Assembly (NCBI GenBank): GCA_045577555.1
Contig: JAZNIQ010000272.1
Location: 356-64,355, forward strand
Source of the DNA: Candidatus Fimenecus sp.
GTDB taxonomy: Bacteria; Bacillota; Clostridia; Oscillospirales; Acutalibacteraceae
Direction: 5' to 3'
Length of the DNA: 64,000 nucleotides
This document shows positions 7,779-25,327 of the stretch, in pieces. The translations under genes were made by a program, and so were the position numbers. The notes beneath the pieces were generated by a model. That model was not told the origin of the DNA, did no database searches, and saw nothing but the letters and a program-made list of their open reading frames with translations. Within the stretch, counting starts at the first letter, position 1. Each line of letters opens with the position of its first letter.

Positions 7779-7810
7779 GTTGCGCATAAAAAGTATGCGC
7801 AACCTCTTTT
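7779..7810 (+). terminator. Rho-independent terminator
   Basis: gttgcgcata-aaaag-tatgcgcaac forms a 10-bp stem followed by ctctttt. Confidence 0.7.
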
Positions 7811-7877: not shown

Positions 7878-7906
7878 TTGCAATATTCTGGGCTTTATGA
7901 TATACT
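7878..7906 (+). promoter_or_regulatory. Sigma-70-type promoter of the BREX-like operon
   Basis: TTGCAA, a 17-nt spacer, then TATACT with a TGn extended -10. It sits 38 nt upstream of the HTH gene ATG. Confidence 0.55.
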
Positions 7907-7943
7907 TATTTTGTCGAATTATAACTTTTTATGAGGTGTACTT

Positions 7944-8153
7944 ATGGCTGTTAGTTACAAGAAACTATGGAAGCTTTTAATTGACCATGATATGAAGAAA
8001 AAAGACCTCGCCCGAGTAGCAGATATCAGTAACTATACTATTACAAAAATGAGCAAAGACGAAAATGTTACTGTTGAAACTCTCGGTAAAATATGTGCCG
8101 CTCTAAACTGCGGCGTGGACGATATTATGGAATTCATTCCCGAAGACAAATAA
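7944..8153 (+). CDS. XRE/Cro-family HTH transcriptional regulator
   Basis: 69 aa. KKKDLARVADISNYTITKMSKDENVTVETLGKICAALNCGVDDI is a typical short YozG-like XRE protein. Confidence 0.85.
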   Translation: MAVSYKKLWKLLIDHDMKKKDLARVADISNYTITKMSKDENVTVETLGKICAALNCGVDDIMEFIPEDK

Positions 8154-8172
8154 AGATTGATACAGGTGCGCT

Positions 8173-10683
8173 ATGTCTGAACGTAAAATGTGGGATAAAT
8201 ACGAGGCTGCAGTATTACTTGAAGCAGTATTAAATATTGAAAACAACATAGAAAGCAGGAACGATGCCGTCGAAAGAGTATCCAAACAACTTCGTTCCAT
8301 GGCGCAAAATCGGGGTTTGACTATTGATGACACCTATAGAAATACCAATGGTATCTCTATGCAAATGGTGGCGATGAAAGCGACTGCTTTTGATATTGAA
8401 TGCAAAATGAAGTCACATTCAAAAGTTTTTTGCGAAGTTGTCGCACTATACCATACCAACCAAGCTGAATACAATATCATTTTAAATCAGGCACACGGTT
8501 GGATTGATTACAGCGAGGAGAAACAGCATATGATGCACGAAGATAGCCCTACAATTTGCTCAAACCGAGATGCATTTTCTTCTTGGCTTCAAACCAAACA
8601 AATAAAAAAACCGGCTCCAAATCTTATTATAGCAGCTATCGATGAAGTATCGGAATATGCAACTAAGCACAACGTGTCAAAAGTTTCTGTTTGGGATATT
8701 CCAGATGAGGATAAGTTCAATACTTTTAGAACAAAAATGCAAGCAATGAGATTGTTTCGTTTGTCGCATAAAAATTCAGCGAAAATATTTGATATATCTT
8801 GGAAGTATTATGTTGATTTTTTGAAAGATAAAAAAGAAGACGGAATAAATGCTTCACAACGAAATGAACTCAAAAACTATGACTATTCTCCTTCGACAAA
8901 GCTCAGTTTTACAAAACCTGAACTGGTAATGTATTTTGGTGCAATAGATAGTAATGTTGCAAGCTGGAGAGATGTGTATAGGTCTGTGTTAAATTCTTTG
9001 TGTGAGGACTACCCATATCAAATTGGTGAACTGGCAAGAAATACCGAGTGTACATGGCTATCATTTAATGACAAAGATTTGCGAAGTCCGGTATTGGTTC
9101 GCAATGGCATGTATGCAGAAGGAAATAAAAGCGCAACAGAGATAGTTAGAACCATAAGATTATTATTGGATATATGTAAAGTCGATTATGAGAACGTTGT
9201 CATACGATATTTGGAAGGCAAAGATGGGCACGTCGCTGAATCTGTTGTAGCAACACATTCTGTGGAAGAAAACACTCTTACAGAATTGTCGGAAGTAGAT
9301 AAACGCCTCTACGAGGTAATTGAGAACCGGTACGTTTCCGGATTCTTACCAGGAGCAATTAATTTTAAGAAAATCAAGCGATTTTATGAAGAAATGTATT
9401 CTCAATCTTTAGAAATTGATGGAGAATCAATTGAAGAATCACTTAACAAAACCTGTTTGCAAGTAAACGGCAAATATTATGCGCCGTCGGCTTTGATGGA
9501 ATATGGATTAAAAATCCGAGCAAACGATTATATTGAGACTGCAATGCAAAGCAAGGGATATGTCTTTTTTGATAATATCCTGGATCATTTTGGTTATGAA
9601 ATGACAGAAAAAATCCCAGATGTTGTATTGTTGAAAAAATATTTGGAAAAAGAATATCCTCAGTATGCTGCTTTAGACGGATATCTTGCTATGAATGCAA
9701 CCGTTGTTATTGATGCTGCTAAGGAAGTTGAACAAATTTTATTTGAATCTGTATTTCCTATGTCTGTTGATAAAATTAAGGCATTGTTACCTCATTTGAC
9801 CGAAGGGGCTATTCAAAGGGTTATTTGGTCTGATGATAGAATTATTGTCACAAACAATAACGACAGATTCTTGATTGATTCCATGGGTATAACTGAAGAA
9901 GATCTTGAGTCAATCAAAAATCTTATCAACGAGGCACTTAATATTCACAACTGCATGTTTGGAAATGAATTGTTGACAAGGATACAAACCAAAATGCCTG
10001 GTTTGTATGAAAGCATTAGAGACTTTGGCGATAGAGGAATTCGTGGAGCTATAGCATATAAGCTTAAAGATAAATTTAAGTTTAATGCAAACATCATTTG
10101 CAAAAAAGAGACAAATATCGATAATGCTGAAGTTTTTAGATCTTTTGCAAAAAGCGAACGTTATTTTACGCTGTCTGCTCTAATCAATTTAAAAGAGCAA
10201 ATAGGAGTAGGTAATGTTTATTTTGAGGCGATCAATGAGGTTTCTTCACGCATTAATGATAATGATTATGTTCCCAATGAAGCGTTACAGTTTGATTCGG
10301 CAGCTATAGATGCTGTTCTTAATCAAATAGTAATTGGGAATATGTGTTCATTAAAAGAAGCGAGCAATTTTGCAATATATCCAAGCACATGTTATCCGTG
10401 GACAGAATATTTGCTTGAAAGTTATGTGGCTAAATATAGTGATGAGTTTAAGCTGTGCCATGGTGGATATGCTGAAGGAAAATGCTGCGGTGCTGTAGTA
10501 AAAAAAACCGTTTCATTGAATTCTATCGATGATGTGGTTACTGAATATCTTGTGCTTAACAGAGAAATTCAAACCGCAAAAGAGGCATTAGAACGTTTGG
10601 TTGAAGACGGTTTCATTGCTAGAAAACGGTACAAAAACATTGAAGATTTACTTATTATTGCCAAGGCCAGAAGAAAGGATTAA
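8173..10683 (+). CDS. Large uncharacterised protein, first big gene of the BREX-like operon
   Basis: 836 aa. It starts 19 nt after the HTH gene and ends 5 nt before brxP. I could find no Walker, methyltransferase (NPPY/DPPY), nuclease or helicase motif. Confidence 0.6.
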   Translation: MSERKMWDKYEAAVLLEAVLNIENNIESRNDAVERVSKQLRSMAQNRGLTIDDTYRNTNGISMQMVAMKATAFDIECKMKSHSKVFCEVVALYHTNQAEYNIILNQAHGWIDYSEEKQHMMHEDSPTICSNRDAFSSWLQTKQIKKPAPNLIIAAIDEVSEYATKHNVSKVSVWDIPDEDKFNTFRTKMQAMRLFRLSHKNSAKIFDISWKYYVDFLKDKKEDGINASQRNELKNYDYSPSTKLSFTKPELVMYFGAIDSNVASWRDVYRSVLNSLCEDYPYQIGELARNTECTWLSFNDKDLRSPVLVRNGMYAEGNKSATEIVRTIRLLLDICKVDYENVVIRYLEGKDGHVAESVVATHSVEENTLTELSEVDKRLYEVIENRYVSGFLPGAINFKKIKRFYEEMYSQSLEIDGESIEESLNKTCLQVNGKYYAPSALMEYGLKIRANDYIETAMQSKGYVFFDNILDHFGYEMTEKIPDVVLLKKYLEKEYPQYAALDGYLAMNATVVIDAAKEVEQILFESVFPMSVDKIKALLPHLTEGAIQRVIWSDDRIIVTNNNDRFLIDSMGITEEDLESIKNLINEALNIHNCMFGNELLTRIQTKMPGLYESIRDFGDRGIRGAIAYKLKDKFKFNANIICKKETNIDNAEVFRSFAKSERYFTLSALINLKEQIGVGNVYFEAINEVSSRINDNDYVPNEALQFDSAAIDAVLNQIVIGNMCSLKEASNFAIYPSTCYPWTEYLLESYVAKYSDEFKLCHGGYAEGKCCGAVVKKTVSLNSIDDVVTEYLVLNREIQTAKEALERLVEDGFIARKRYKNIEDLLIIAKARRKD

Positions 10684-10688
10684 TACCG

Positions 10689-13013
10689 ATGTATTCATAT
10701 GAATGGGATTCACAAACAGGCGGCTATATATTGAATGCCACACCGCTGGCATTCAGCAAAGAGCCACGCCCTGTTTACTATAAAGAATTAGATATTTTAG
10801 GATTTGATGCTAAATGGAATTATCCTAAGTCGGATGCTTATCCACTAATGTGGGCGGAGGCAAATAACTATTTTTACAGGGGAAGACTTGTTGCAAAAAC
10901 AAGAGGTGGCTCTATATGTCAGGCGCCTGAATTGATTTTTGTTGAAGATCCGGAGCCTAACGGTGAAGAATTACGCTTTGTAGATATTCCTGCTATGATA
11001 GAAAAAAACTTAGGAATAATTGAAAGTTTGACTCAAGAAACAATAAAGAAAATATATAACACTTATATCGATTATCAAAAGAAAGTAGACATATTTTATG
11101 TTGCCTTCTCTGGCGGTAAAGATAGCGTAGTAACTTTAGATTTGGTTCAAAGAGCCCTTCCTCATAATGCTTTTAAAGTTTTATTTGGCGATACAAAAAT
11201 GGAATTTCCAGATACATATAAATTGGTAGAAGAAATCCAAAGAACATGTGCGGAACAAAATATTGACTTTATTCGCGCAACTTCCCATTTTGAGCCACAA
11301 GAAAGTTGGAGAAAGTTCGGCCCTCCTGCACAGACCATTCGATGGTGTTGCAGTGTGCATAAGACATCTCCCCAGATCATTTTGCTAAGGGAGTTGCTTG
11401 GCAAGATAAACTTCACCGGGATGGCGTTTATTGGCGTTAGGGCAAGCGAAAGTGTAAGCAGAAATGATTATGATTTCGTGAGTTTAGGCGAAAAACATAA
11501 GGGACAGTATAGTTGTAATCCTATATTGGAATGGAATAGTGCAGAATTGTTTCTATATATTTATGCAAACAATCTTCCCATCAATGATTGTTATAAAAAA
11601 GGTAACAACAGAGCAGGTTGCTTGGTGTGCCCAAACGTTTCAGAAAAAAATGCCTTTTTCCGTAAGGCTTGCTATAAAAACGAAGTGGATAATTACCTAG
11701 ATATTATTAAAGACTTGTACAAAGATAGCATCGGTTCTAAGGAAAAGCTTGATGAATTTTTAAGTAATACCGGTTGGCGTGCACGATTGAATGGAAGAGA
11801 TATCTCTTTGAATAGCAATTATAACGAAATAGTAAGTTCCTCAAAGACGGAAATTACAGTAATTCATCCCAAAACAAATTGGCGTGAATGGATTAAAACT
11901 ATCGGCGTTTTGCAAAATGATCATTCGCCATATCAAATTCTTTTCAGAGGAGAATTACTACACTTTGCTTTGATTGAACAGGATGACATTATTAAAGTTG
12001 AGATTAGTGGTAGTTTATGTAAGCAAAAACCTATTTTTGTAAAGCTATTAAAGAATGTTTTCAGAAAAACAGCAAATTGTGTTGGGTGTAGAGAATGTGA
12101 AGCAGATTGCCATAACGGTTGTTTGAAAATTATTGACGGAGCAGTTATGATAAGCGATAGGTGCAAGCATTGTTCTGAATGCCACAAAGTTGATAATGGT
12201 TGTCTGGTTTATAAATCATTGGCAATGCCTAAAGGAGGAATGGGAATGGGACAAAAAAGTTTGAATTGCTATTCAACTCACGCTCCTAAATTGGATTGGA
12301 TAGCGCAGTATTTCAAATATAAGAACGAATTTGATTATAATCACGATCTTGGATCTCAAATGTATAGTTTCTTCAAGCGTTTTTTGAAGGATGCAGATTT
12401 GATAGATGAAAAAGGCTTTAGTAGAACTGCTAAGATTATCGAAAGAATTGGGTTGGATGATTTGTCGGCTTGGGGCTTGATCTTGTCAAATTTGGCATAC
12501 ACACCTCAAATTGGTTGGTTTGTCAAATCTTTTGGATTCAATGAGAATATTAGTAGAAGTTATGCTACTACATTGTTAGTTGACTGCGGTACACAGGAAA
12601 GAGCCGCTAATGATATATGGAGATCTTACTCACGTTTTATTGATCTGCCTTTTTCTCAAGTAGGACTTGGTATGCCCGATAGAGATTCTGGAAAAGCATC
12701 AGGTTTTACAAGAATCCCATGGTTGAATCCAGATCCCAAAGTGGTTCTTTATGCGCTGTATAAATTTTCTGAAGCGTGTGGCGATTATAAGCAGTTTTCG
12801 TTGACTCGCCTTTTGAACCATGAGATTGAAAGTGATGGCATTAGCCCGACACAAATCTTCGGCTTGGATAGAAAAACGATGGAAAGAGTTTTAAGTGGAC
12901 TTGCTAACAACTATCCTGAATTTATTTCTGTATCGTTTGTGTTAGATCTAGACAATATTAACTTGAAAGAAAAGACATCTGCAGATGTCTTGGCTTTATT
13001 CGAAGAGGAGTAA
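10689..13013 (+). CDS. brxP: PAPS-reductase/PP-loop ATP-pyrophosphatase family protein, BrxP-like (DndC/SspD-related), with a ferredoxin-like dicluster segment
   Basis: 774 aa. PP-loop FYVAFSGGKDSVVTLDLV and RWCCSVHK. Cys clusters CVGCRECEADC (Cx2Cx2Cx3C) and CKHCSECHKVDNGC. About 260 aa of unassigned C-terminal domain. Confidence 0.75.
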   Translation: MYSYEWDSQTGGYILNATPLAFSKEPRPVYYKELDILGFDAKWNYPKSDAYPLMWAEANNYFYRGRLVAKTRGGSICQAPELIFVEDPEPNGEELRFVDIPAMIEKNLGIIESLTQETIKKIYNTYIDYQKKVDIFYVAFSGGKDSVVTLDLVQRALPHNAFKVLFGDTKMEFPDTYKLVEEIQRTCAEQNIDFIRATSHFEPQESWRKFGPPAQTIRWCCSVHKTSPQIILLRELLGKINFTGMAFIGVRASESVSRNDYDFVSLGEKHKGQYSCNPILEWNSAELFLYIYANNLPINDCYKKGNNRAGCLVCPNVSEKNAFFRKACYKNEVDNYLDIIKDLYKDSIGSKEKLDEFLSNTGWRARLNGRDISLNSNYNEIVSSSKTEITVIHPKTNWREWIKTIGVLQNDHSPYQILFRGELLHFALIEQDDIIKVEISGSLCKQKPIFVKLLKNVFRKTANCVGCRECEADCHNGCLKIIDGAVMISDRCKHCSECHKVDNGCLVYKSLAMPKGGMGMGQKSLNCYSTHAPKLDWIAQYFKYKNEFDYNHDLGSQMYSFFKRFLKDADLIDEKGFSRTAKIIERIGLDDLSAWGLILSNLAYTPQIGWFVKSFGFNENISRSYATTLLVDCGTQERAANDIWRSYSRFIDLPFSQVGLGMPDRDSGKASGFTRIPWLNPDPKVVLYALYKFSEACGDYKQFSLTRLLNHEIESDGISPTQIFGLDRKTMERVLSGLANNYPEFISVSFVLDLDNINLKEKTSADVLALFEEE

Positions 13014-13019
13014 TTTGAT

Positions 13020-16000
13020 ATGAATAAATATGGCTATTATTTTGATATTGACGAAGAATTTTTCTCTGCCGTCAATCGAGAATTAATTGAAGAAGGAAAA
13101 GTTGATTGGCACAAGTTTTTCCCTCATGAGACTTTCGTAAAGTTGATTAAAGATACTGTAAGTGTTTTGACAAAGCAGCATCTTTCTATCTGGGTAGAAG
13201 GTGGTTATGGTACAGGTAAGTCTTATGCAGCCCTGACATTGAAAAAGCTTCTCGAAGCCAGCGAAGAAGAAACAAAGGCGTATTTTCAGAGATATAGTTT
13301 GGATAATGATCTGTTAAACAAGTTCTTAGGAGCAAAATCTCAGGGTCAGAAGATTGTCACAGTTCATCGTTATGGAGCGCAATCCATCTTGAATGAACAG
13401 GATCTTGTGCTTGCAATTCAGGAAAGCATAAAAGAATCTTTGATTCAAAATAATGTTGAGTATTTGGGCGAAACTTCTTTGAAGGATTCTGTTATTAAAT
13501 GGCTTTCCAACACTTCGAACAAAAATTATTTTAATAGTATAATCAAGGACGAATTTCCTACGGAATTTGGTGGTGATGATGTAGATCGTATCATCGAAAA
13601 GCTGAAATCGTATGATAAAGACAAACTCATCGTCTTGATGAACAAAATTTTCAAGGTCGCCAAGATCAAAGGAATCCATGCTATGACTCTCGATAAGGAA
13701 GCTATGGTTGTATGGATTAAAGATATAATCAAGATAAATAATCTTAAAGCAATCGTATTCATTTGGGATGAGTTTACGAAATACTTTGAAAACAACATGA
13801 GTGATTTGACTACATTCCAAAAACTTGCAGAATTGAGCGAAACGGCTCCGTTTTATCTGGTAATTGTAACTCATAAGTCGGAAGGTATTTTTGCGGAAAA
13901 CGATAATGACAAAAAGTTGCTCGGAAGATTTGTCAACCCTACATGTCTTATAGAGTTGCCCGATACTATGGCTTTTAGGCTTATGGCTGAAGCCATGGAG
14001 AAGGTAAAAGAACCCTCGATCAACGAAGAGTGGGAAGAAATGGTGGGAGATCTGTTTAACAGAACCAATACTTCCAGAGAACTTGTTTTAAAGCAGCTTC
14101 AGAAGAAAGATCCGAAGTTTACTATGAATGATATGGCAAGAATATTGCCTATGCATCCTTATGCCGCACTGCTTTTAAAGCACTTATCTGCTCAGTTTGC
14201 TTCAAACCAAAGAAGTATGTTTGACTTTATCAAAAATGATAAGGGCGAGGAAATTCATGGCTTCCAGTGGTATATCAAGAATTATGGCCCTGAAGACGAC
14301 GAGCCGTTATTTACAATTGATATGCTGTGGAATTTCTTCTATGAAAATGGAAAAGATCAGTTGTCGAGCGATGTTAGAACAATTCTGAATCATTACAATA
14401 ATTCTCATCCCGGAGATTTGATGGAGCCTCAGAGAAGAGTTCTGAAAACCGTTCTTCTCATGACAGCAATATCGCAGTCCTTGGGCGATAGCGTTGATTT
14501 GTTTATCCCTACAGATACAAACATTGCCAATGCATTTGAGGGAATTGAAAATTTGGAAGGTGCACAAGCAATTAATGCGGCTCGTTCTTTAGTGGATCTT
14601 CACGTTCTTTATAGAAAGAAGCTCAAAGATAACAAAGAATGCTTTGCTCCTTTGATGGCGGCTGTAGATACCAGTAAAAAGGCTGAGTACGAGGGACAAA
14701 TTGACCAGTATACCACGACAAAATTGGTTGATGATGCTGGATTTAATAGCGACGATAATATTAAAAATCCTACAGGTAAATTGCTTTTTACTTCTCCTAT
14801 TGCCAATCGCTTCAAAATTGTGTTGGTGGGTCAAGATGCGTTTGGTCAGAGAGTGCGCTTGATACGCAACAATCCTATTCCTGGGAAGATTCCAGTTGTT
14901 ATTGGATTCGCCAAGAATGATACTGAATGTGCGTTGCTGAGTAAACTTGTTAAGGAATACATAGGTAATCCTGAATATGATGAGTGTAATATTATCTATG
15001 TGATAGCAAAGACTCCTCTTGGTGCAGATTTGTATGCAAGATATAAGGACAATCTATCAGATAGCATGACATTTGCAGGAAATGACAAGGGCAGTGAGGC
15101 AGAGAGAAGAAAAGAAGCACTCAAGATATTGAATTTGGAGTGGGGTAATAGGCTCGAATCGGGTGCCTATGACGTTTCTTGGAAAAAGAACAATGGAGAA
15201 TATTGCAATGAATACATTCCAGATTTCAGTAGCTTAAAAGATTACTTGTTGCATACAGTTGACAGAGATTTTTACCCTTGCGGATTTGAGTGGAGATTCG
15301 CTCTTGCAGCTAATATGTATAAGTCTTCGCTTCAAGCAAAGCAAGGTGTAAAAAGCGCGGTTAATGGTTCTTGCGAGGGAACCTTCAACAATCCCAATAA
15401 ACTGTTGAAAACCGAACAGGTTGCTGAGAGTGCTTGGGGAACTTCACATCTGGATCGATACTGGGAAACCAATCCCGGATTGGCAATCAGTATGCTGAAG
15501 AGTGCTATTGAGAAGAAAATCAACGCTGATTTTGCATCTGAAGGAAGAGTGTCGATAAGCAGCATCTATGACATTGCTAAATCGAAGCCTTTTGGATTGA
15601 TGCCGTGTAATATTACAGCGTTTATTCTTGGTTTTGTTCTCAGAGAATACACATCTGATCAATATCGCTATACAGATGATCAAACTTCCGATGTTATGAA
15701 TGTTGTACATCTGCAAGTGATGATTGATGAAATCATTAAAATCCAAGAAACGCCGGACAAGCGATACAGAGATAAGTACATTGTTACAATGACTCCCGCT
15801 GAAAGAGAATTCCAAAATGTTGTTTCAAACGTTTTTGGAATCCCAGCGGAGTTGTGCACTTCAATTCAAAATACACGTGACAGAGTGAGAAATAAGATGA
15901 AAGAATTATCTTTCCCCATGTGGACTCTGAAGTGTATAACAGAGGAATTGAATATTGTAAGCGAAAAATCGGTAATTGACACTGCTATTGAATTGTTTGT

Positions 16001-17270: not shown

Positions 17271-17272
17271 TT

Positions 17273-19561
17273 ATGTTATTAGAACGCTGCATAGAAAAAA
17301 TTGAGAAGCATAATCACAAAAATCCCAACAAAGTAATTTTTGTAAATTTCAATAATATCGAGCATTTAAAGGCATTCAAGGAGCACTTTATATTTGGTAG
17401 CAACTTCGTTGGAGTTGCTACCAATAAAGGTGCTGATAAATTGCCTACATATGACGAGATACTTAGTGTTATTGAAAATAGTGCAAATAATACCTTTGTT
17501 GAAGGGATAGGGGCCTATTTGCGCCTGTTTGGGCAAAAACAAGTTGAGTCCATATTAAACCAGTTAATAAATACCTCAATGAGTTCAAATGCAGTAGTTT
17601 TACTTTTTCAATGCGAGGAAGTATTGCAGCAACTAATAAAAAAAGATCCACGAGTAGAAACACGAGTAATTTTGGTGGATGGAGAAAAAGATCAACTACC
17701 AAAAATTACATTTATCAAAGAAGATATAGCAAGGTCTATAGATCAAAATGTTTACTTTGGTGTGGCATCTTTGATTGACAAGTTGGATGAAAGCTTGTCA
17801 GAGCATATATATGTTAGTACACATTTTGGAAAAAAAGATTTTGCAGAATCCCTCTATAATATTGATGAGTTGACATCTTTCTTTGAGATTATTAGAACGG
17901 ATTATATAACATCTTTATTGCAAAGCGATGAGAATTGTTTAAATCCGTCTCAGTGGAAGAGCATAGCCATTGGTTGTAAAGAATGCGGAAGCTTTGAGGA
18001 CTATTTCCATAAGATTATTGGAACAACTGATTCGGTTGATCTATATATGAAATCGTGGCCAAGCTTATCTGATGATAAAAAAGCCGCACTTTTCATTATG
18101 CTTAAAACAAATGCGGCCTGTTGTAACAATAGATGCTTGAGGGTTGCCGTTGCTAATTGCGATAACATAGATGGGTTGCTTTTAGAGGTGTACAAAACCA
18201 TTATCGACGAAAACACCAAGAGCAAGGCGTTTTGGACGTTTTACGATGAGAGAAAGCAAGTACTTCAAGCAATAGGAATGAATGAGCATATTGCAAATAC
18301 GTTTTGTAACTATGCAGAATCTTATGAAGAAAATGCACTTTTTGCACTAACCGATATCACTCAGGCAGAGAAAAAACTGACATTAAAATTAATAGCCAAA
18401 TTTAATAATAAATTTACTAAAAAAGAGTTGCTTGGATTACTGAAACACACTTACAATGATTTGTATTTGTATCTCTTGAATTATGATTATCAGATCCAGG
18501 AGATAGACAGTTATTTTAATGAATATAAGTATTTGAAAGTTGTTAATTCGGTAACTGATAATTTCAGAGATAGAGTTTTGCAAGAGGCAACACAAAGAAA
18601 CTTTTATAGAGTTTTACCAACCAGAAGTGAAAGGCTTGGAGCGTTAGAAAAGGATAATTCCATTTTGTATTTCGTGGATGCCTTGGGATTGGAGTATATG
18701 AGCTTTATTGCTAAGAAGGCGTCAGAAATGCAAATGATGATGAGCGTTGATTTTTGCCATTGTGATTTGCCGTCAATTACTCCTCTCAATAAAGAATTCT
18801 TGAATGTTTTCAAAAATGCAGGTGCAGACATAATTGATAACATAAAAGATATTGACGATATTAAACATTCAGGAACTCTTGATTATGACTATAGAAAAAG
18901 TCCATATCCAACCTATCTTGCAGATGAGTTGGATAAACTTCAGCAAATCTTAGAAAAAATCAATAACAAGTTAGGGACAACATACGATCGGGCATTTATC
19001 ATATCTGACCATGGGGCGAGTCGTCTTGCTGTAATAAGCGGCAAAGAAACGAAATGGGAAATGATTAATAAGGGTGAGCATTGTGGAAGATGCTGCAAAG
19101 TTTCCGAACATATTGTCGATGAACCAAATGAATATATGACCGAAGAAAACGGATACTGGGTTTTGGCTAATTATGATAGAATTAAGGGTGGTAGACCCGG
19201 TACGGTTGAAGTTCATGGCGGTGCAACACTTGAGGAAGTATGTGTGCCTATAATCGAATTCACAAGAATGCCTGAAAACATTAAAATTGATGTTATTACC
19301 AAGTTGGTCGAGACTGCATACAAAAAGAAGCCTGTACTTAAATTTACCGCAAATTGTAAATTAACCAATGTTTCAATTACCATTGGCGATAAGAGATTTG
19401 TTGCAATCTCTGAGGATAAGAAACATTTTTCAGTTGAATTGCATGGAATCAGATTAGAAAAAGAGTATACATTTGATGTTTGGTCTAACAGCAATGTGAT
19501 TTGCGGAAATTTGAAGTTTAGATTGAAATCTGCTGGAATGGTGGATAATGATATACTTTAA
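17273..19561 (+). CDS. pglZ: PglZ-domain (alkaline-phosphatase superfamily) protein
   Basis: 762 aa. ILYFVDALGLEYMSF and FIISDHGASRL resemble PglZ metal-site motifs. The gene starts 2 nt after brxC. Confidence 0.75.
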   Translation: MLLERCIEKIEKHNHKNPNKVIFVNFNNIEHLKAFKEHFIFGSNFVGVATNKGADKLPTYDEILSVIENSANNTFVEGIGAYLRLFGQKQVESILNQLINTSMSSNAVVLLFQCEEVLQQLIKKDPRVETRVILVDGEKDQLPKITFIKEDIARSIDQNVYFGVASLIDKLDESLSEHIYVSTHFGKKDFAESLYNIDELTSFFEIIRTDYITSLLQSDENCLNPSQWKSIAIGCKECGSFEDYFHKIIGTTDSVDLYMKSWPSLSDDKKAALFIMLKTNAACCNNRCLRVAVANCDNIDGLLLEVYKTIIDENTKSKAFWTFYDERKQVLQAIGMNEHIANTFCNYAESYEENALFALTDITQAEKKLTLKLIAKFNNKFTKKELLGLLKHTYNDLYLYLLNYDYQIQEIDSYFNEYKYLKVVNSVTDNFRDRVLQEATQRNFYRVLPTRSERLGALEKDNSILYFVDALGLEYMSFIAKKASEMQMMMSVDFCHCDLPSITPLNKEFLNVFKNAGADIIDNIKDIDDIKHSGTLDYDYRKSPYPTYLADELDKLQQILEKINNKLGTTYDRAFIISDHGASRLAVISGKETKWEMINKGEHCGRCCKVSEHIVDEPNEYMTEENGYWVLANYDRIKGGRPGTVEVHGGATLEEVCVPIIEFTRMPENIKIDVITKLVETAYKKKPVLKFTANCKLTNVSITIGDKRFVAISEDKKHFSVELHGIRLEKEYTFDVWSNSNVICGNLKFRLKSAGMVDNDIL

Positions 19562-19572
19562 GGAGAAATGAA

Positions 19573-21072
19573 ATGAAGGAAGAATTGGTCGAAAAATTGC
19601 AAGAATGTTTTGGACAAATGGTTGTCTATAAAGACTTAAGTAAGAGTAATTTCTTCTCTGCGTTAAGTTTACCTTCATTCTTGAGAGATTGGTTGCTTAA
19701 AAAATTTGAGGATGAAAACGGCGAATATGATATAGAAGAAGTAAGTGCGTTTATTAAAACTTATTTGCCTCGCAAAGATGATTGGGTTAGCATTAAGAAC
19801 AGAATTATTTGCGAGAACGAAAGAGTGAAATTCTTAACTAAAATTAGTGTTGATATCAGTATTAAAACGCAAGAGATTACTTTTTCTCTTCCCGAATTTG
19901 GTCTTACAAATAAAGAAACCATTATCGAAGAAAGCGTGTGGGCGCAATATAGTTCTGAGTTGGTTGCTGGCAAGGAAGTATGGGGAATTGTAGAGTTGGG
20001 GTATCGTTCACCTGATGCATATGATGTTACTTGGGAAGATAATAGCAATGGTACCAAAGCAAAAGGCGGAAAACAAGGAAAAATTAAATTAACTAAGTTT
20101 ACTAATTTCTGTCCGTATACTATCGATATTGAATTTTTTAAGGATATCAGAAATGAGTTTAACATTCACGAATGGATAGATGTCTTACTGGGAGCTATTG
20201 ACTATAACGCAGATGGATATCAAACCGAAAAAGAGAAACTTGCTATGGTGACTCGTTTACTACCATTTGTAGAAAAGAGGATCAACCTAATTGAATTGGC
20301 TCCTAAAGGAACAGGAAAGTCGTATTTGTTCGGAAGAATTAGCAAATATGGTAATTTAACAGCAGGTACTATGTCTCGTGCAAAATTATTTTACGATTTA
20401 AGCAAAAGAACATATGGACTTATATATAATAATGACTATGTTGCGTTTGATGAAATACAAAAATTGGCCTTTGCCGATCCCGATGAAATGAGTCAAACAT
20501 TTAAGGGATATATGGAACAAGGCATAGTGTCTTTTGGCGGTCATAGTGGAACGCCTGAAGCAGGAGTAATTTTGCTTGGAAACATACCGCAAGATAACAT
20601 GAATGAATTTGTTCCTATGTTTGGCACCTTGCCAGAACTGTTCAAAGAAAGTGCCCTTCTTGATAGATTCCATGGATTCATCAAAGGATGGGATATACCG
20701 AGAATGAAAGAAAATATGAAAATCTGTGGATGGGCTTTGAATACTGCGTATTTCTGCGAAATTATGCATTTGATGAGAGATGACGTAAGTTACCGTGCAG
20801 TAGTAGATGAATTGCTTGAATACGATGCAAACTCTGACACTAGAGATGTTGAGGCTGTTAAGCGTATAGCAACAGGATACCTGAAGTTGCTATTCCCGAA
20901 TGTTAGAACTGCGTCTGATATTAAGGTGAAAGATTTCAAAGAATACTGCGTAAGACCTGCAGCTAATATGCGTGGAATTATAAAATATCAAATGGGTCTG
21001 CTTGATCAAGAATATCGCGGTAAAGATGTGCCCAAGTTTTCAATCAGGGAGATAGCTAAAGATGATGAGTAA
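19573..21072 (+). CDS. brxL: BrxL-like AAA+/Lon-related protein (short form)
   Basis: 499 aa. The N-terminus FGQMVVYKDLSK..LPSFLRDWLLKKF resembles the BrxL N-terminus. Walker A ELAPKGTGKSYLF and Walker B VAFDEIQ. I saw no clear Lon Ser-Lys protease domain. Confidence 0.65.
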   Translation: MKEELVEKLQECFGQMVVYKDLSKSNFFSALSLPSFLRDWLLKKFEDENGEYDIEEVSAFIKTYLPRKDDWVSIKNRIICENERVKFLTKISVDISIKTQEITFSLPEFGLTNKETIIEESVWAQYSSELVAGKEVWGIVELGYRSPDAYDVTWEDNSNGTKAKGGKQGKIKLTKFTNFCPYTIDIEFFKDIRNEFNIHEWIDVLLGAIDYNADGYQTEKEKLAMVTRLLPFVEKRINLIELAPKGTGKSYLFGRISKYGNLTAGTMSRAKLFYDLSKRTYGLIYNNDYVAFDEIQKLAFADPDEMSQTFKGYMEQGIVSFGGHSGTPEAGVILLGNIPQDNMNEFVPMFGTLPELFKESALLDRFHGFIKGWDIPRMKENMKICGWALNTAYFCEIMHLMRDDVSYRAVVDELLEYDANSDTRDVEAVKRIATGYLKLLFPNVRTASDIKVKDFKEYCVRPAANMRGIIKYQMGLLDQEYRGKDVPKFSIREIAKDDE

Positions 21073-21265
21073 TGTAAAGTGTGCATTTTGCGATAAAGAT
21101 AATCTTTCAAATGATGAGATTGGATTAACAAAAAAACTCATTGATAAAAATCCGAGTAAATACTACTGTATTGATTGCATGGCTGAGTATCTGGATGTAA
21201 CAGTAGAGGAACTCTACGATAAAATCGAAGAGTTTAAAGATGAAGGCTGCACATTATTCAAGTAA
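21062..21265 (+). CDS. Small Cys-rich (zinc-ribbon-like) protein
   Basis: 67 aa with CAFC..(33 aa)..CIDC and a C-terminal GC. It overlaps the brxL stop by 11 nt. Confidence 0.55.
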   Translation: MMSNVKCAFCDKDNLSNDEIGLTKKLIDKNPSKYYCIDCMAEYLDVTVEELYDKIEEFKDEGCTLFK

Positions 21266-21274
21266 GGAGTTATT

Positions 21275-22405
21275 ATGAAGCAATTCATTTATGCCGACAA
21301 TGCGGCAACTACAAAATTAGATATTGATGCATTTGAGGCAATGAAGCCGTTCTTGCTCTATGAGTACGGAAACGCTTCTCAACTGTACTCCTTTGCGCGG
21401 AAACCGAAGCAAGCTTTGAAAGAGGCACGTGCTACAATTGCCCAGTGTATCAACGCAGAACCAGAGGAGATATTTTTTACTTCCGGCGGTACGGAAAGTG
21501 ATAATTGGGCAATTAAAGGCGTAGTTTTTTCCGACTCTAAAAAACACGCTATAATCACCTCACAAATCGAACATCACGCTGTATTAAAGACTTGTGAAGA
21601 TGTTGAAAAGATTGGATGCCCCATTGCTTATTTGCCCGTTACTAAAGAAGGCGTTGTTACGCCAGAAGCCTTAAGTTCCGTAATTACGCCCAATACATGC
21701 CTTGTTTCCATCATGTTCGCAAACAACGAGATTGGAACAATAGAGCCAATTGAGCAGCTATGTGAAATTGCTCACCGCAATGGAGCGTTATTCCATACCG
21801 ATGCCGTTCAAGCCGTAGGTCATATTCCAATTGATGTAAAGGAACTGGGAGTAGATATGTTGTCTGCTTCTGCGCATAAATTCAATGGTCCCAAGGGAAT
21901 CGGATTTTTGTACATAAAAAAAGGAACACTTGTCGCTTCATACGCAAGTGGCGGTGCTCAGGAATTCGGCCTGCGCGCCGGTACAGAGAACGTTGCTTCA
22001 ATCGTGGGTATGGCGGTTGCACTTAAGAAAAATTGTGACAATCTCGCGAAAAATATTCAACACATGGAGAATATAGAATCTCAACTGTTAGACAATTTAT
22101 CTTCTTCTGGTTTGGAGTTTATTAGAAATGGCAGCCCATATCATATCCCCGGAAACATTAGTCTCTCATTTAAGAACGCCGATGGAGAAGCATTGCTTCA
22201 TCGATTGGATTTAATGGGAATATGTGTTTCAACTGGCGCAGCATGTGATACGACAAACACCCAAACCTCTCATGTGCTTACTGCTATTGGGTTAGATCAA
22301 GAATATGCACAAGGAACAATTAGAATTTCTTTAGGCGTTCACAATAGCAATCAGGAGATAGAATTAATTGCAAACGCACTTCATTCTATTAGAAATAAGA
22401 ATTGA
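21275..22405 (+). CDS. Cysteine desulfurase (NifS/IscS/DndA class, PLP-dependent)
   Basis: 376 aa. PLP lysine SASAHKFNGPKGIGFL, catalytic loop CVSTGAACD and N-terminal IYADNAATT. Confidence 0.9.
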   Translation: MKQFIYADNAATTKLDIDAFEAMKPFLLYEYGNASQLYSFARKPKQALKEARATIAQCINAEPEEIFFTSGGTESDNWAIKGVVFSDSKKHAIITSQIEHHAVLKTCEDVEKIGCPIAYLPVTKEGVVTPEALSSVITPNTCLVSIMFANNEIGTIEPIEQLCEIAHRNGALFHTDAVQAVGHIPIDVKELGVDMLSASAHKFNGPKGIGFLYIKKGTLVASYASGGAQEFGLRAGTENVASIVGMAVALKKNCDNLAKNIQHMENIESQLLDNLSSSGLEFIRNGSPYHIPGNISLSFKNADGEALLHRLDLMGICVSTGAACDTTNTQTSHVLTAIGLDQEYAQGTIRISLGVHNSNQEIELIANALHSIRNKN

Positions 22406-22413
22406 GGATATAT

Positions 22414-23379
22414 ATGGCAATAACCATGAAAGAATACAATTTCTTAACATCAAAATATAGGATTGATCGAAAATTATATAAATATTTTTCAGATATCAAC
22501 AAAGCTATTAGTTGCATTCAGAGACGAGCTGTTCATCTTGACGATCCCCAAAAATTCAATGATCCTTTTGAGGCATATTATTGCTGCTATTTTTATTCCA
22601 TTAATTCAACTATGGACAAGAAGAGCAATATAATAGCAAAGATCCATTCTTATATTGCTAAAGCAGCATCACTAAATTCACAACTCTATAAAAATATAAT
22701 GGATGCAATGATGCTATATATGATCAACAAATTTGATGCCGATGATAGCATGTGCGAAAGTACAAGTGTTATCCAAGAAGTGTATGTAGCTTTAGGGGAT
22801 GTAGAGTTCTCATTTGATTATTTTTGTGAAGCCATCGATTTTGGCTTTAGAGAAACAAATCCTTATATTGCAATAGATTGCAAAATGTCTTGTTTCAGTG
22901 AGATATGCGACTCTATGTTAATGTGGTCATATTATGCAGACTCGCACAAGGGGATTTGTATAGAGTATGATCTTTCTAAATTGCCGAAAACTCCAACCAA
23001 TCAAAAGATAATTGATTCACTTACAAAAGTACAATATAGCCCTAACCGTATTGACTGTTTGCATGGAGAGGCTGAAGATAATGTGGTTAAAATTTTAACC
23101 TCAAAGTCAGATGTTTGGTCTCATGAACAGGAATGGCGGATTGTATGTGAAACGAATAATGAGTGGTTACCCTTTGATTGTATTAGTGGGGTTTATTTAG
23201 GAAAAAAATTTAATTTGAAATCACCTCTATACAAAAAACTTGTTGATTCTTTGGAAGAAATACAAGGCCTAAAAATATACAAAGCAAAATTACATACAAC
23301 AAAATATCAGTTAGAGTTTTCGGAAGAAGTAGATCTTGATTTTTATAGAATGTTCAAGTCTCGTCTCAGTAACACTTAA
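22414..23379 (+). CDS. DUF2971-family protein
   Basis: LYKYFS, FNDPFE, FSE..MLMWSYYADSHKGICIEYD and SDVWSHEQEWRIV match the DUF2971 signature order. ATG at 22414 follows gagga; the track's TTG at 22402 is less likely. Confidence 0.7.
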   Translation: MAITMKEYNFLTSKYRIDRKLYKYFSDINKAISCIQRRAVHLDDPQKFNDPFEAYYCCYFYSINSTMDKKSNIIAKIHSYIAKAASLNSQLYKNIMDAMMLYMINKFDADDSMCESTSVIQEVYVALGDVEFSFDYFCEAIDFGFRETNPYIAIDCKMSCFSEICDSMLMWSYYADSHKGICIEYDLSKLPKTPTNQKIIDSLTKVQYSPNRIDCLHGEAEDNVVKILTSKSDVWSHEQEWRIVCETNNEWLPFDCISGVYLGKKFNLKSPLYKKLVDSLEEIQGLKIYKAKLHTTKYQLEFSEEVDLDFYRMFKSRLSNT

Positions 23380-23450
23380 AAACAATTTGTAGAACAACCC
23401 TGGACTATTAAAACCCTTTGTGATATTGTTTCGTATCACAAAGGAGGTTT

Positions 23451-23957
23451 ATGTTTATGAAAGAGGAAAAGAGAAATAAAATGATTTGTTTTCACGATCC
23501 GGACAAGGAGTATGGCTTTTTAAGTAATTGGTATATGTCGGATTTTATTGAAGATGGAAGGCTGTATACATCTGTGGAACAATACTTAATGTATGGGAAA
23601 GCGATGGTCTTTAAAGACGAAGAGATGCAGCAAGCAATCCTTAACACACATGACGTTGCTGAAATAAAACAATACGGTAGACAAGTCAAAGCATATAACG
23701 AAACGGTATGGAACGGACTTAGGCAGTTAGTGCTATATCGTGGATTGTGGTTAAAATTCAGTCAAAACGAAGAATTAAAACAAAAATTGATTGACACAGG
23801 CAATGACATACTTGTGGAGTGTGCGAGAACAGACAAAATCTTCGCATGCGGTATGTCGATGAAAGATCCAATAAGATTTGATATGAACAAATGGTCTGGC
23901 AAAAATTTACTTGGTTTTGCACTGATGGACTTGCGTGAACAATTGAAGAAAAAGTAA
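23451..23957 (+). CDS. NADAR (YbiA/DUF1768) family protein
   Basis: FLSNWYMSDF..DGRLYTSVEQYLMYGKA..F.D, KQYGRQV and LKFSQNEELKQKL. The start may instead be the ATG at 23457. Confidence 0.75.
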   Translation: MFMKEEKRNKMICFHDPDKEYGFLSNWYMSDFIEDGRLYTSVEQYLMYGKAMVFKDEEMQQAILNTHDVAEIKQYGRQVKAYNETVWNGLRQLVLYRGLWLKFSQNEELKQKLIDTGNDILVECARTDKIFACGMSMKDPIRFDMNKWSGKNLLGFALMDLREQLKKK

Positions 23958-23976
23958 TTTCGAAGTTAAAACCAAG

Positions 23977-24010
23977 GCGTCGCAGAAATGCGGCGCTTTT
24001 GCTTTTTTAT
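23977..24010 (+). terminator. Terminator ending the BREX-like operon
   Basis: gcgtcgc-agaaat-gcggcgc stem-loop followed by ttttgctttttt. Confidence 0.6.
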
Positions 24011-24081
24011 ATCGAAAAAACGCTGGACTTGTAAAAGGTGTTGTGGTATGTGTTTGTGTTGCAAAAGGAGGTGCAACGCAC

Positions 24082-24366
24082 ATGACAACACTTGAAGATT
24101 TATATTATGGCAACATCAGTCCACACGAAAGGTATATCAAGCGAGGAACGAGAGTGGATAAGCTCGTAAAGCTGATATGCAAGAATGAGGATGAATTGAC
24201 GGCAGGGTTAACAGAGAAGCAAAAAGAAACTTTTGAAAAATTCAAAGACTGCACAAGTGAGCTATCCTGCATCACCGAGCGAGAAGCGTTCAGTTCGGGG
24301 TTCATCCTTGCCACTCGCATAATGGCGGAAGTGATGCAAGGGTTAGAGCAGGTCGAAGATATATGA
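24082..24366 (+). CDS. Conserved small hypothetical protein, paralog A
   Basis: ATG at 24082 follows aaaggagg. The 94 aa protein is highly similar to the 32295-32588 product (TLEDLYYGNISPHERYIKRGTRVDKLVKLICKNE...). Confidence 0.65.
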   Translation: MTTLEDLYYGNISPHERYIKRGTRVDKLVKLICKNEDELTAGLTEKQKETFEKFKDCTSELSCITEREAFSSGFILATRIMAEVMQGLEQVEDI

Positions 24367-25292: not shown

Positions 25293-25321
25293 TTGACATT
25301 TAAAGAAAAAATGGATATAAT
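25293..25321 (+). promoter_or_regulatory. Consensus sigma-70 promoter
   Basis: TTGACA, exactly 17 nt, then TATAAT. Confidence 0.7.
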
Positions 25322-25327
25322 ATAGAT

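What the first reader, a model, noticed from the sequence alone, without database searches (positions are those of the whole stretch)
7878..24010. BREX type 4-like operon physically fused to a sulfur-mobilisation module (cysteine desulfurase), suggesting a phosphorothioate-type self mark
Seen in the sequence: ten plus-strand genes lie between one promoter (7878) and one terminator (23977), with gaps of -11 to +19 nt apart from a 71-nt gap before the NADAR gene. The order is XRE HTH, an unknown 836 aa protein, a PP-loop PAPS-reductase protein (SGGKDS), a 1416 aa P-loop ATPase, PglZ, a BrxL-like AAA+, a 67 aa Zn-ribbon protein, a NifS/DndA-type cysteine desulfurase, DUF2971 and NADAR. I found no SAM-methyltransferase motif anywhere in the operon. 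Established knowledge: BREX type 4 is defined by brxP (PAPS reductase domain), brxC/pglY, pglZ and brxL, with brxP in place of the PglX methylase. In the Dnd and Ssp systems, a cysteine desulfurase (DndA/SspA) and a PAPS-reductase-like ATP pyrophosphatase (DndC/SspD) together insert sulfur into the DNA backbone. Inference: co-transcribing a cysteine desulfurase with BrxP suggests this BREX variant marks self DNA by a sulfur-based, PT-like modification. That would make it a hybrid of BREX and Dnd/Ssp logic with three or four extra components. To my knowledge the chemistry of type 4 BREX has not been shown experimentally.
Basis: partly seen in the sequence, partly recalled or inferred. Interest (0 to 1): 0.88.

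Follow-up and report, generated by a model that had tools for sequence, protein, structure and literature searches.

The report
Phosphorothioate-type BREX with own desulfurase
This is a real type 4 BREX phage-defence operon that carries its own cysteine desulfurase to put sulfur into the DNA backbone, but papers from 2024-2026 already showed this chemistry and this gene association, so the locus is a further example and not a discovery.

Summary
Ten tightly packed plus-strand genes (7944-23957) encode an XRE regulator, an 836-aa unknown protein, BrxP, BrxC, type-4 PglZ, short BrxL, a 67-aa Zn-ribbon protein, a cysteine desulfurase, DUF2971 and NADAR. No methyltransferase is present.

The inference of a phosphorothioate self mark is very probably right, but it is not new. 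Yuan et al. (Nat Commun 2026; preprint 2024) showed that BrxP and BrxC make phosphorothioate. [quoted passage not shown]

My own checks agree. Desulfurase relatives at 74-93% identity always follow BrxL and the Zn-ribbon gene, even where BrxC and PglZ are only about 30% identical.

Three things are not in the papers I read:
- The 836-aa protein is a multi-winged-helix DNA-binding protein. It lies directly upstream of BrxP in all eight operon types I could inspect, and its family has about 3,300 clusters.
- DUF2971 (a predicted DarT-like ADP-ribosyltransferase) plus NADAR is a swappable tail cassette. It is not part of the sulfur chemistry.
- Related operons carry PARG, Macro or NUDIX genes in the same position.

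The operon sits next to an integrase module inside a defence island.

The parts
7878..7906 (+). Candidate sigma-70 promoter (TTGCAA, 17 nt, TATACT, with TG extension)
   Evidence: It matches 9 of 12 consensus positions and lies in the only sizeable intergenic gap, after the terminator at 7779-7803. Promoter-like sites are not enriched over shuffled sequence, so this is plausible but not shown.
7944..8153 (+). XRE/Cro-type HTH regulator (69 aa)
   Evidence: HTH_26 8.5e-21. A homologous small HTH gene is called at the head of the operon in the p836-anchored loci L001-L005 and L022 and is detected by tblastn in L006/L007.
8173..10683 (+). p836: multi-winged-helix DNA-binding protein with a swappable N-terminal part of about 230 aa. 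A conserved partner of BrxP.
   Evidence: No family hit. AF2 model with mean pLDDT 84. Foldseek hits are tandem winged-helix proteins: UFL1, SelB C-terminus, Dcc1, RPC62. It lies directly upstream of BrxP in the window and in seven further operon types, down to 23% identity. An exhaustive profile search found 3,344 clusters. Long members carry RNA-polymerase alpha-CTD and sigma-70 region 4 modules. Nucleotide homology to L006/L007 starts only at window 8866.
10689..13013 (+). BrxP: PP-loop PAPS-reductase domain, two ferredoxin-type Cys motifs and a DUF4007/SspB-like C-terminus
   Evidence: PADLOC BrxP 7.7e-232, SspD 1.7e-10, DndC 1.5e-07. PAPS_reduct 1.4e-31; DUF4007 19.7 bits, below the cut-off of 27. 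SGGKDS motif, plus C464-x2-C-x2-C-x3-C474 and C492-x2-C-x2-C498.
13020..17270 (+). BrxC/PglY ATPase (SspC-like)
   Evidence: PADLOC BrxC 1.3e-258; SspC models down to 2.6e-22. Walker A GYGTGKS.
17273..19561 (+). PglZ, type-4 form
   Evidence: NCBIfam NF033445 BREX-4 PglZ, 381 bits against a cut-off of 140. DUF7864, DUF7863 and DUF7862.
19573..21072 (+). BrxL, short form (AAA+ only, no Lon protease domain)
   Evidence: TIGR02688 386.5 bits against 329.3. BrxL_N and BrxL_ATPase.
21062..21265 (+). 67-aa Zn-ribbon protein, partner of the desulfurase
   Evidence: Two CxxC pairs. tblastn finds it (58-92% identity) between BrxL and the desulfurase in each of the six intact operon types examined that carry the desulfurase. 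It matches the 'small zinc-finger protein' of PMC12839542.
21275..22405 (+). Dedicated DndA/SspA-type cysteine desulfurase (class V PLP enzyme)
   Evidence: PADLOC DndA 4.2e-132 and SspA 3e-131. Best PDB matches are cysteine desulfurases, with SspA 6m4j at 5.6e-62 and DndA 3vax at 3e-53. K202 and C324 are present. Relatives at 74-93% identity all lie after BrxL in BREX-4 operons.
22402..23379 (+). DUF2971 protein (PADLOC candidate PDC-S31), predicted in the literature to be a DarT-like ADP-ribosyltransferase
   Evidence: DUF2971 5.1e-10 and PDC-S31 4.7e-38. The family-invariant Y178 and E242-x-E244 are kept. The ART prediction comes from PMC12522546. It recurs in BREX-4 tails in L011, L023 and L027.
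23415..23444 (+). 12-bp hairpin between DUF2971 and NADAR that overlaps the NADAR ribosome-binding site. It has no T-run.
   Evidence: It lies just past the point (23393) where homology to L027 ends.
23451..23957 (+). NADAR ADP-ribosyl hydrolase. This is the window's variant of a swappable hydrolase slot.
   Evidence: NADAR 1.3e-45. PDC-M42C 1.5e-68. L027-L030 have PARG and Macro genes at this position. The breakpoint is 14 nt after the DUF2971 stop codon.
23974..23999 (+). Intrinsic terminator that closes the operon
   Evidence: 11-bp stem with 6 G-C pairs, followed by a T-run.

Best explanation
The region is a type 4 (phosphorothioate-based) BREX defence operon that carries a complete counterpart of the SspABCD modification machinery.

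Proposed mechanism:
- The PLP-dependent desulfurase (21275-22405) takes sulfur from L-cysteine as a persulfide on Cys324. Its 67-aa Zn-ribbon partner is conserved with it.
- The sulfur passes to BrxP. BrxP combines an SspD-like PP-loop ATP pyrophosphatase, two ferredoxin-type Fe-S motifs and an SspB-like DNA-binding tail.
- BrxP works with the SspC-like ATPase BrxC to replace a non-bridging phosphate oxygen with sulfur at specific host sequences.
- PglZ and the short BrxL then act against incoming DNA that lacks the mark.
- The XRE protein probably regulates the operon.
- p836 is a modular multi-winged-helix DNA-binding protein that probably helps with target recognition or sensing.
- DUF2971 plus NADAR is a separate cassette appended to the operon. 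It is probably an ADP-ribosyltransferase and hydrolase pair in the manner of DarT/DarG.

What is shown in the literature for homologues: PT synthesis by BrxP plus BrxC with a desulfurase supplied in trans.
What is inferred: PT at this locus, the roles of PglZ and BrxL in restriction, and the roles of p836, the Zn-ribbon protein, DUF2971 and NADAR.
For: - All four defining BREX-4 genes are present, with full-length, high-scoring matches, and no methyltransferase.
- BrxP matches SspD and DndC models, and weakly DUF4007/SspB. BrxC matches SspC.
- The desulfurase has intact catalytic residues and matches SspA and DndA structures.
- Relatives of the desulfurase at 79-84% identity from independent samples (P0151, P0084, P0157) all sit after BrxL and the 66-aa gene in BrxP-BrxC-PglZ-BrxL operons.
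- It stays 74-93% identical where BrxC is 34% and PglZ 28% identical.
- DndB-family genes lie next to it in L007 and L015. An SRA_ScoMcrA-domain gene lies in the tail of L023.
- Published experiments: BrxP and BrxC are necessary and sufficient for PT when a desulfurase is present (PMC12914056).
- Published genomics: desulfurase with zinc-finger protein in 56% of type-4 taxa (PMC12839542).
- p836.
- Tail cassette.
Against: - No measurement exists on DNA from this organism.
- The DUF4007 match in BrxP is below Pfam's cut-off (19.7 against 27 bits).
- The desulfurase scores below the curated cut-offs of NifS (450.8 against 530.75), IscS and DndA (330 against 480). It is therefore a clade of its own and not an equivalog of a characterised enzyme.
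- In B. salyersiae the system works with a housekeeping SufS, so a dedicated desulfurase is not strictly required.
- The archaeal BREX-4 on Methanosphaera plasmid pNP174 has neither a desulfurase nor p836.
- The ART assignment of DUF2971 could not be reproduced by HMM searches against the PDB or Pfam.
- Eighty distant DUF2971 loci show no hydrolase or BREX neighbours.
Confidence: 0.85

Rival explanations
1. The desulfurase is a housekeeping NifS/IscS-type enzyme for Fe-S cluster or thio-cofactor synthesis that only happens to lie next to BREX here.
For: Its best NCBIfam match is NifS (TIGR03402, 450.8 bits). Its best PDB matches are general cysteine desulfurases.
Against: - It is below the NifS, IscS and DndA equivalog cut-offs.
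- No NifU/IscU scaffold gene lies beside it. It overlaps or abuts its neighbours by +9 and -4 nt.
- Every relative I looked up (P0151, P0084, P0157), the copies in L006/L007 and those in L027-L030 sit after BrxL and the Zn-ribbon gene in BREX-4 operons.
- DndB genes are adjacent in two lineages.
- The association is published for 255 of 457 taxa.
Confidence: 0.03
2. The desulfurase mainly loads the Fe-S clusters of BrxP, as DndA assembles the cluster of DndC. It would then not be the direct donor of the sulfur that ends up in DNA.
For: BrxP has two ferredoxin-type CxxCxxCxxxC motifs. The type-4 PAPS reductase is described as carrying a conserved Cys-rich 4Fe-4S-like region. The title of You et al. 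2007, as cited, says that DndA assembles DndC as an iron-sulfur protein.
Against: In the Dnd and Ssp systems the desulfurase is regarded as the sulfur donor for PT. The two roles do not exclude each other.
Confidence: 0.2
3. DUF2971 and NADAR are an integral effector arm of this BREX-4 variant, not an independent stacked module. The ART-like protein would ADP-ribosylate invader DNA that lacks PT, and the hydrolase would protect or reset host DNA.
For: - This DUF2971 subclade (38-93% identity) was found only in BREX-4/desulfurase tails: window, L011, L023 and L027.
- The gene overlaps the desulfurase gene by 4 nt.
- It lies inside the block that is 97% identical to L027.
- ADP-ribose hydrolases recur in these tails: NADAR, PARG, Macro, NUDIX.
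Against: - Many BREX-4 operons with the desulfurase lack DUF2971 (L006, L007, L008, L015).
- PARG occurs without DUF2971 in L008.
- PADLOC lists DUF2971 proteins as a single-gene candidate system.
- Tail genes are exchanged between divergent operons, which is typical of independent cargo.
- ART activity is unproven.
Confidence: 0.15

Closest known systems
Type 4 BREX (brxP-brxC-pglZ-brxL), shown to synthesise phosphorothioate in Bacteroides salyersiae (Yuan et al., Nat Commun 2026, PMC12914056)
   Same: The same four core genes in the same order, no PglX methyltransferase, BrxP as an SspD-SspB-type fusion, BrxC as an SspC homologue, and a regulator gene at the head.
   Different: The B. salyersiae operon relies on a desulfurase encoded elsewhere (SufS) and contains an mcrA-type gene. 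The window encodes its own desulfurase and Zn-ribbon protein, has p836 upstream of BrxP and has no McrA-type reader. Its relatives are gut Clostridia, not Bacteroidota.
Type-4 BREX with cysteine desulfurase as 'sixth core component' plus a small zinc-finger protein (Rakesh and Krishnan, NAR 2026, PMC12839542)
   Same: The BrxL, Zn-finger, desulfurase arrangement is exactly the published association. PglZ has the N-terminal extension and BrxP the Cys-rich ferredoxin-like insert described there.
   Different: The text and supplements of that paper held here do not mention NADAR, DUF2971 or DndB. The sections I read (34, 35 and 38) describe no separate multi-wHTH protein upstream of BrxP.
SspABCD phosphorothioation module (SspA desulfurase, SspB DUF4007, SspC ATPase, SspD PAPS reductase)
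   Same: All four functions are represented: the desulfurase matches the SspA model at 3e-131, BrxP matches SspD and weakly SspB, and BrxC matches SspC. A Treponema plasmid Ssp-like locus shows the same co-operonic desulfurase.
   Different: SspB and SspD are fused in BrxP. The restriction partners are PglZ and BrxL, not SspE or SspFGH.
DarTG toxin-antitoxin defence (DarT ADP-ribosylates DNA; DarG1 carries a NADAR hydrolase, DarG2 a macrodomain)
   Same: A predicted DarT-like ART (DUF2971, per PMC12522546) is followed directly by a NADAR hydrolase. In the nearest relative it is followed by PARG-like and Macro-domain genes. This mirrors the NADAR or macrodomain alternatives of DarG.
   Different: DUF2971 is not the DarT family, and I found no HMM-level link to any ART family. 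Most DUF2971 genes have no hydrolase neighbour. Toxin-antitoxin behaviour is untested.

Membership tests
BREX type 4 | brxP: a PAPS-reductase-domain protein in place of the PglX methyltransferase | tested here: met
   PADLOC BrxP 7.7e-232 over residues 1-771; PAPS_reduct 1.4e-31; SGGKDS PP-loop. No methyltransferase domain or motif in any of the ten proteins.
BREX type 4 | brxC/pglY large ATPase | tested here: met
   PADLOC BrxC 1.3e-258 over the full length; Walker A present.
BREX type 4 | pglZ of the type-4 kind | tested here: met
   NCBIfam NF033445 'BREX-4 system phosphatase PglZ', 381.1 bits against a cut-off of 140.
BREX type 4 | brxL | tested here: met
   TIGR02688 386.5 bits against a cut-off of 329.3; BrxL_N and BrxL_ATPase.
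BREX type 4 | Phosphorothioate modification of host DNA and exclusion of phage | not testable with these tools
   Shown for homologous systems only (PMC12914056). It needs LC-MS/MS, PT-seq and phage assays on this system.
Dnd/Ssp-type PT sulfur-mobilising desulfurase (DndA/SspA) | Class V PLP fold with the PLP lysine and the persulfide-forming cysteine | tested here: met
   Aminotran_5 1.4e-82; SAHK with K202; C324 aligned to the active-site loop of solved desulfurases; SspA 6m4j 5.6e-62 and DndA 3vax 3e-53.
Dnd/Ssp-type PT sulfur-mobilising desulfurase (DndA/SspA) | Scores as an equivalog of DndA (TIGR03235) | tested here: not met
   330 bits against a cut-off of 480. It is also below the NifS cut-off (450.8 against 530.75) and the IscS cut-off (329 against 643.2). 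It is a separate, BREX-4-linked clade.
Dnd/Ssp-type PT sulfur-mobilising desulfurase (DndA/SspA) | Conserved genomic linkage to the PAPS-reductase/ATPase modification genes | tested here: met
   In each of the six other intact operon types examined downstream of BrxL that carry a desulfurase, it directly follows BrxL and the Zn-ribbon gene; the one exception is L007, where a 180-aa gene and a DndB gene intervene. The association is published for 56% of type-4 taxa.
SspB/DUF4007 DNA-binding module (as the C-terminus of BrxP) | Match to DUF4007 above the family threshold | tested here: inconclusive
   PF13182 19.7 bits against a cut-off of 27, residues 651-764. PADLOC SspB E = 0.0074. The literature assigns this region to DUF4007 by HHpred and structure.
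DarTG-like ART/hydrolase toxin-antitoxin pair | Toxin is an ADP-ribosyltransferase of the DarT family | tested here: not met
   The protein is DUF2971, not DarT. Profile searches against the PDB and Pfam gave no ART hit. ART-like status rests on PMC12522546 and on the retained Y178 and E242-x-E244.
DarTG-like ART/hydrolase toxin-antitoxin pair | An adjacent ADP-ribosyl hydrolase (NADAR or macrodomain) | tested here: met
   NADAR 1.3e-45, starting 71 nt downstream. PARG-like and Macro genes occupy the same slot in L027-L030.
DarTG-like ART/hydrolase toxin-antitoxin pair | Toxicity of the transferase that the hydrolase neutralises | not testable with these tools
   Needs expression experiments.

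The most novel reading that the evidence does not exclude

1. p836 would be a seventh conserved subunit. It is a multi-winged-helix protein with a swappable N-terminus that sets or senses target specificity.
2. An ADP-ribosylation layer would be functionally coupled to BREX-4. It would consist of the DUF2971 ART-like enzyme together with interchangeable NADAR, PARG, Macro or NUDIX hydrolases. Sulfur marking and DNA ADP-ribosylation would then cooperate in telling self from non-self.
Probability: 0.2. Interest if true: 0.6.

Novelty: new member of a known kind. Interest (0 to 1): 0.3.

Why it matters
The main idea is that type 4 BREX writes a sulfur mark and that some versions carry their own sulfur donor. 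This is now established knowledge, so the locus mostly confirms published work in another lineage, gut Clostridia. What is left is modest but usable:
- A complete, self-contained PT-BREX operon with its regulator and its own desulfurase. It would suit heterologous reconstitution without relying on host SufS or IscS.
- A large unannotated family of DNA-binding proteins (p836, about 3,300 clusters) tied to BrxP. It could explain the species-specific incompatibilities that Yuan et al. met when they swapped BrxC between species.
- A recurrent set of ADP-ribose-processing genes at the 3' end of these operons. This hints at a second layer of defence, or of counter-counter-defence.

Tried and rejected
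- **Exact-sequence look-ups.** BrxP and p836 from the window are not on record, so the source record could not be named. Cluster look-ups gave no names either. The taxon is inferred only from close relatives (Acetatifactor and Eubacteriales MAGs).
- **Reference-genome scan.** I therefore could not repeat an unbiased count of desulfurase presence across taxa and rely on the published 56%.
- **p836, sequence level.** The PDB sequence search and PHROGs gave nothing.
- **p836, N-terminal third.** A separate model of residues 1-370 was poor beyond residue 222 and gave no significant fold hit.
- **p836 and BrxP.** hhalign of p836 against the DUF4007-like tail of BrxP showed no relation.
- **DUF2971 as an ART.** The profile search against the PDB gave only spurious RhoGEF hits, and a permissive Pfam scan of 27 members found only DUF2971 itself.
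- **L008 233-aa protein.** It precedes PARG but is not a divergent DUF2971.
- **Element ends.** No exact direct repeats of 13 nt or more flank the putative integrative element between 4.4-7.9 kb and 30.1-34.3 kb, and the window has no tRNA gene. The ends of the element remain undefined.
- **Housekeeping NifS.** Considered and rejected (see the rival explanations).
- **Supplementary data.** None are held for Yuan et al., so I could not compare p836 with their 'unknown Bs02795 gene'.

Full report
**Observation.** GC skew is positive throughout the block. A strong intrinsic terminator follows the last gene at 23974-23999, and a bidirectional terminator at 7779-7803 closes the upstream unit. The promoter at 7878 matches only 9 of 12 consensus positions, and promoter-like sites are not enriched over shuffled sequence, so it is plausible mainly by position.

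Profile searches confirm every domain call:
- HTH_26.
- BrxP: PADLOC 7.7e-232; PAPS_reduct.
- BrxC: 1.3e-258.
- PglZ: the NCBIfam 'BREX-4' model, 381 bits against a cut-off of 140.
- BrxL: TIGR02688 above its cut-off; a short form without a Lon domain.
- Class V aminotransferase/cysteine desulfurase.
- DUF2971.
- NADAR.

Motif checks show the following:
- The SGGKDS PP-loop and two CxxCxxCxxxC-type motifs in BrxP.
- A Walker A motif in BrxC.
- Two CxxC pairs in the 67-aa protein.
- The PLP lysine (K202) and active-site cysteine (C324) in the desulfurase.
- No methyltransferase motif in any of the ten proteins.

**What is already known.**

Yuan et al. (Nat Commun 2026; bioRxiv June 2024; PMC12914056) report the following:
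- Bacteria with brxPCZL, but without dnd or ssp genes, carry phosphorothioate dinucleotides.
- Deleting brxC abolishes them.
- brxP plus brxC suffice in Bacteroides thetaiotaomicron, which supplies a SufS desulfurase.
- BrxP is in effect an SspD-SspB fusion and BrxC an SspC homologue.

Rakesh and Krishnan (NAR 2026; PMC12839542) surveyed 457 type-4 taxa. [quoted passage not shown]

The arrangement BrxL, 67-aa Zn-ribbon protein, desulfurase seen here is that published arrangement.

**Independent check of the desulfurase linkage.**
- The window's BrxP also matches SspD and DndC models, and weakly DUF4007/SspB. BrxC matches SspC models.
- The 120 best desulfurase homologues listed are 77-98% identical.
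- I looked up three of them, at 79-84% identity and from independent samples. Each lies directly after BrxL and a 66-aa gene in a BrxP-BrxC-PglZ-BrxL operon.
- The two loci retrieved through PglZ also have the pair.
- A table of all loci shows the desulfurase at 74-93% identity and the Zn-ribbon protein at 58-92%, even where BrxC has fallen to 34% and PglZ to 28%.
- The enzyme scores below the curated cut-offs for NifS, IscS and DndA, so it forms its own BREX-4-linked clade.
- DndB-family genes sit beside it in two lineages. A gene with the SRA domain of the PT-dependent nuclease ScoMcrA sits in a third tail.
- The desulfurase is not universal. An archaeal BREX-4 on Methanosphaera plasmid pNP174 lacks it. 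A Treponema plasmid shows the analogous Ssp operon with its own SspA-type gene.

The 'coincidental housekeeping NifS' alternative is effectively excluded.

**The 836-aa protein.**
- It has no hit in Pfam, PADLOC, NCBIfam, PHROGs or PDB sequences.
- The word-indexed search found 63 homologues, none annotated.
- Besides the window, all seven operon types I could inspect place it directly upstream of BrxP, down to 23% identity. A small HTH gene usually precedes it.
- An AlphaFold2 model from 31 sequences has mean pLDDT 84. Its Foldseek hits are proteins built from tandem winged-helix domains: UFL1, the SelB C-terminus, Dcc1, RPC62 and YcaQ. No catalytic fold appears.
- An exhaustive profile search found 3,344 representative clusters, 1,492 of them at E <= 1e-30. 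They share a conserved C-terminal core of about 500 aa and have N-termini of very variable length.
- Long members carry RNA polymerase alpha-CTD-like and sigma-70 region 4 modules, which are also DNA-binding.
- Compared with the close relatives L006 and L007, nucleotide homology begins only at window 8866, and the two N-terminal modules occur in a different order.
- The N-terminal third gave no fold match. The protein is unrelated to the DUF4007 tail of BrxP.

I read p836 as a modular DNA-binding subunit for recognition or sensing. The papers I read do not describe it. I could not compare it with the unnamed gene Bs02795 of B. salyersiae, which was dispensable for PT synthesis.

**The tail genes.**
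- A 2025 survey predicts that DUF2971 is a DarT-like, DNA-acting ADP-ribosyltransferase with a conserved tyrosine and an ExE motif (PMC12522546).
- The window protein keeps the family-invariant Y178 and E242-x-E244.
- I could not reproduce the ART link with HMM searches against the PDB or Pfam.
- NADAR is the hydrolase family that reverses ADP-ribosylation of DNA bases and forms the antitoxin of DarTG1.
- The nearest relatives (L027-L030) are 97% identical to the window at the DNA level from BrxP to position 23393. That point is 14 nt past the DUF2971 stop codon, and the sequences diverge after it. Where the window has NADAR, they have a PARG-like gene and a Macro-domain gene.
- DUF2971 of this subclade recurs after the desulfurase in L011, and after a NUDIX gene in L023.
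- PARG-like genes that are 79% identical occur in operons whose cores are only 34-45% identical. L007 has a NUDIX gene after the desulfurase.
- Eighty distant DUF2971 loci from metagenomes show no such neighbours.

So the 3' end of these operons is a slot where ADP-ribose-related cassettes are exchanged. DUF2971 plus NADAR looks like a DarTG-style pair. I see no reason to link it to sulfur chemistry. Whether it is functionally coupled to BREX-4 or merely stacked on it remains open.

**Context.**
- After the terminator come DUF6809, an AAA_25 protein, RHH and HTH_17 proteins and a tyrosine integrase (24043-30129). The divergent BREX-4 locus L008 has a similar module (DUF6809, AAA_25, HTH_17 and integrase) in the same position. 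The operon is therefore probably cargo of an integrative element. I found no att-like repeats and no tRNA gene.
- Further along, the window is a defence island. It holds an ADP-ribosylglycohydrolase, a Macro protein (53-61% identical to the tail Macro of L027), an SF1-type helicase, two GmrSD-type genes, a type I R-M system with a TIR gene inserted between hsdS and hsdR, Fic, and a C5-methyltransferase.
- The only Rfam hit is a Gut-1 sRNA at 5147-5217.

**Verdict.** However, the finding was published in 2024-2026 for homologous systems, including the desulfurase and zinc-finger association. This locus is a new member of a known kind. Residual interest lies in p836 and in the ADP-ribose cassette slot.

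Noticed in passing
window 24043-30129 (+): An integrative-element module lies directly after the BREX-4 terminator: DUF6809, two unknown genes, an AAA_25 ATPase, RHH, HTH_17 and a tyrosine integrase (28942-30129). The divergent BREX-4 locus L008 has a similar module (DUF6809, AAA_25, HTH_17 and integrase) after its operon. No att repeats and no tRNA gene were found.
   Followed up: partly
window 45764-53799 (-): A type I restriction-modification system: HsdM 51733-53799, HsdS 50518-51729 and HsdR 45764-48988. A TIR-domain gene (49011-50060) and a 152-aa gene are inserted between hsdS and hsdR. A Fic gene lies next door at 53803-54702.
   Followed up: no
window 39245-45720 (-): A 1054-aa AAA_11/AAA_12 helicase is followed by two GmrSD-type genes. 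One has GmrSD_N and GmrSD_C, the other GmrSD_N and DUF7834. This looks like a type IV restriction-like module.
   Followed up: no
window 34342-39223 (-): More ADP-ribose enzymes lie outside the operon: an ADP-ribosylglycohydrolase (34342-35283) next to a 340-aa unknown gene, and a 354-aa Macro-domain protein (38159-39223). The Macro protein is 53-61% identical to the one that follows DUF2971 and PARG in the BREX-4 tail of L027-L030.
   Followed up: partly
L007 14017-15804; L015 11140-12913: A DndB-family gene, preceded by an unknown gene of about 180 aa, lies next to the BREX-4 desulfurase in two lineages. It is before the desulfurase in L007 and after it in L015. DndB is the regulator of Dnd-type PT modification.
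   Followed up: partly
L023 3997-9005: This looks like a BREX-4 remnant: a p836-like fragment, BrxL, the desulfurase, an SRA_ScoMcrA-domain gene, NUDIX and DUF2971. BrxP, BrxC and PglZ are missing upstream. An AbiEii toxin-antitoxin pair follows.
   Followed up: no
loci L004-L017 compared with the window: The desulfurase (79-84%) and BrxL (about 60%) are far better conserved than BrxC (34%), PglZ (28%) and p836 (about 34%) in the same operons. Either the specificity and sensor parts evolve quickly, or the 3' module is exchanged between operons.
   Followed up: partly
window 23415-23444 (+): A 12-bp hairpin without a T-run overlaps the NADAR ribosome-binding site (…CACAAAGGAGG), just past the recombination breakpoint at 23393. 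It might control NADAR translation.
   Followed up: no
window 5147-5217 (-): A Gut-1 sRNA (Rfam RF01706, 57.2 bits against a gathering score of 50) lies upstream of the island. This fits a gut-microbiome origin.
   Followed up: no
window 32748-33320 (+) and 55720-56712 (+): A short (190 aa) phage-integrase-family ORF that may be a fragment of a second integrase, and a C5 cytosine DNA methyltransferase with no obvious partner nuclease.
   Followed up: no
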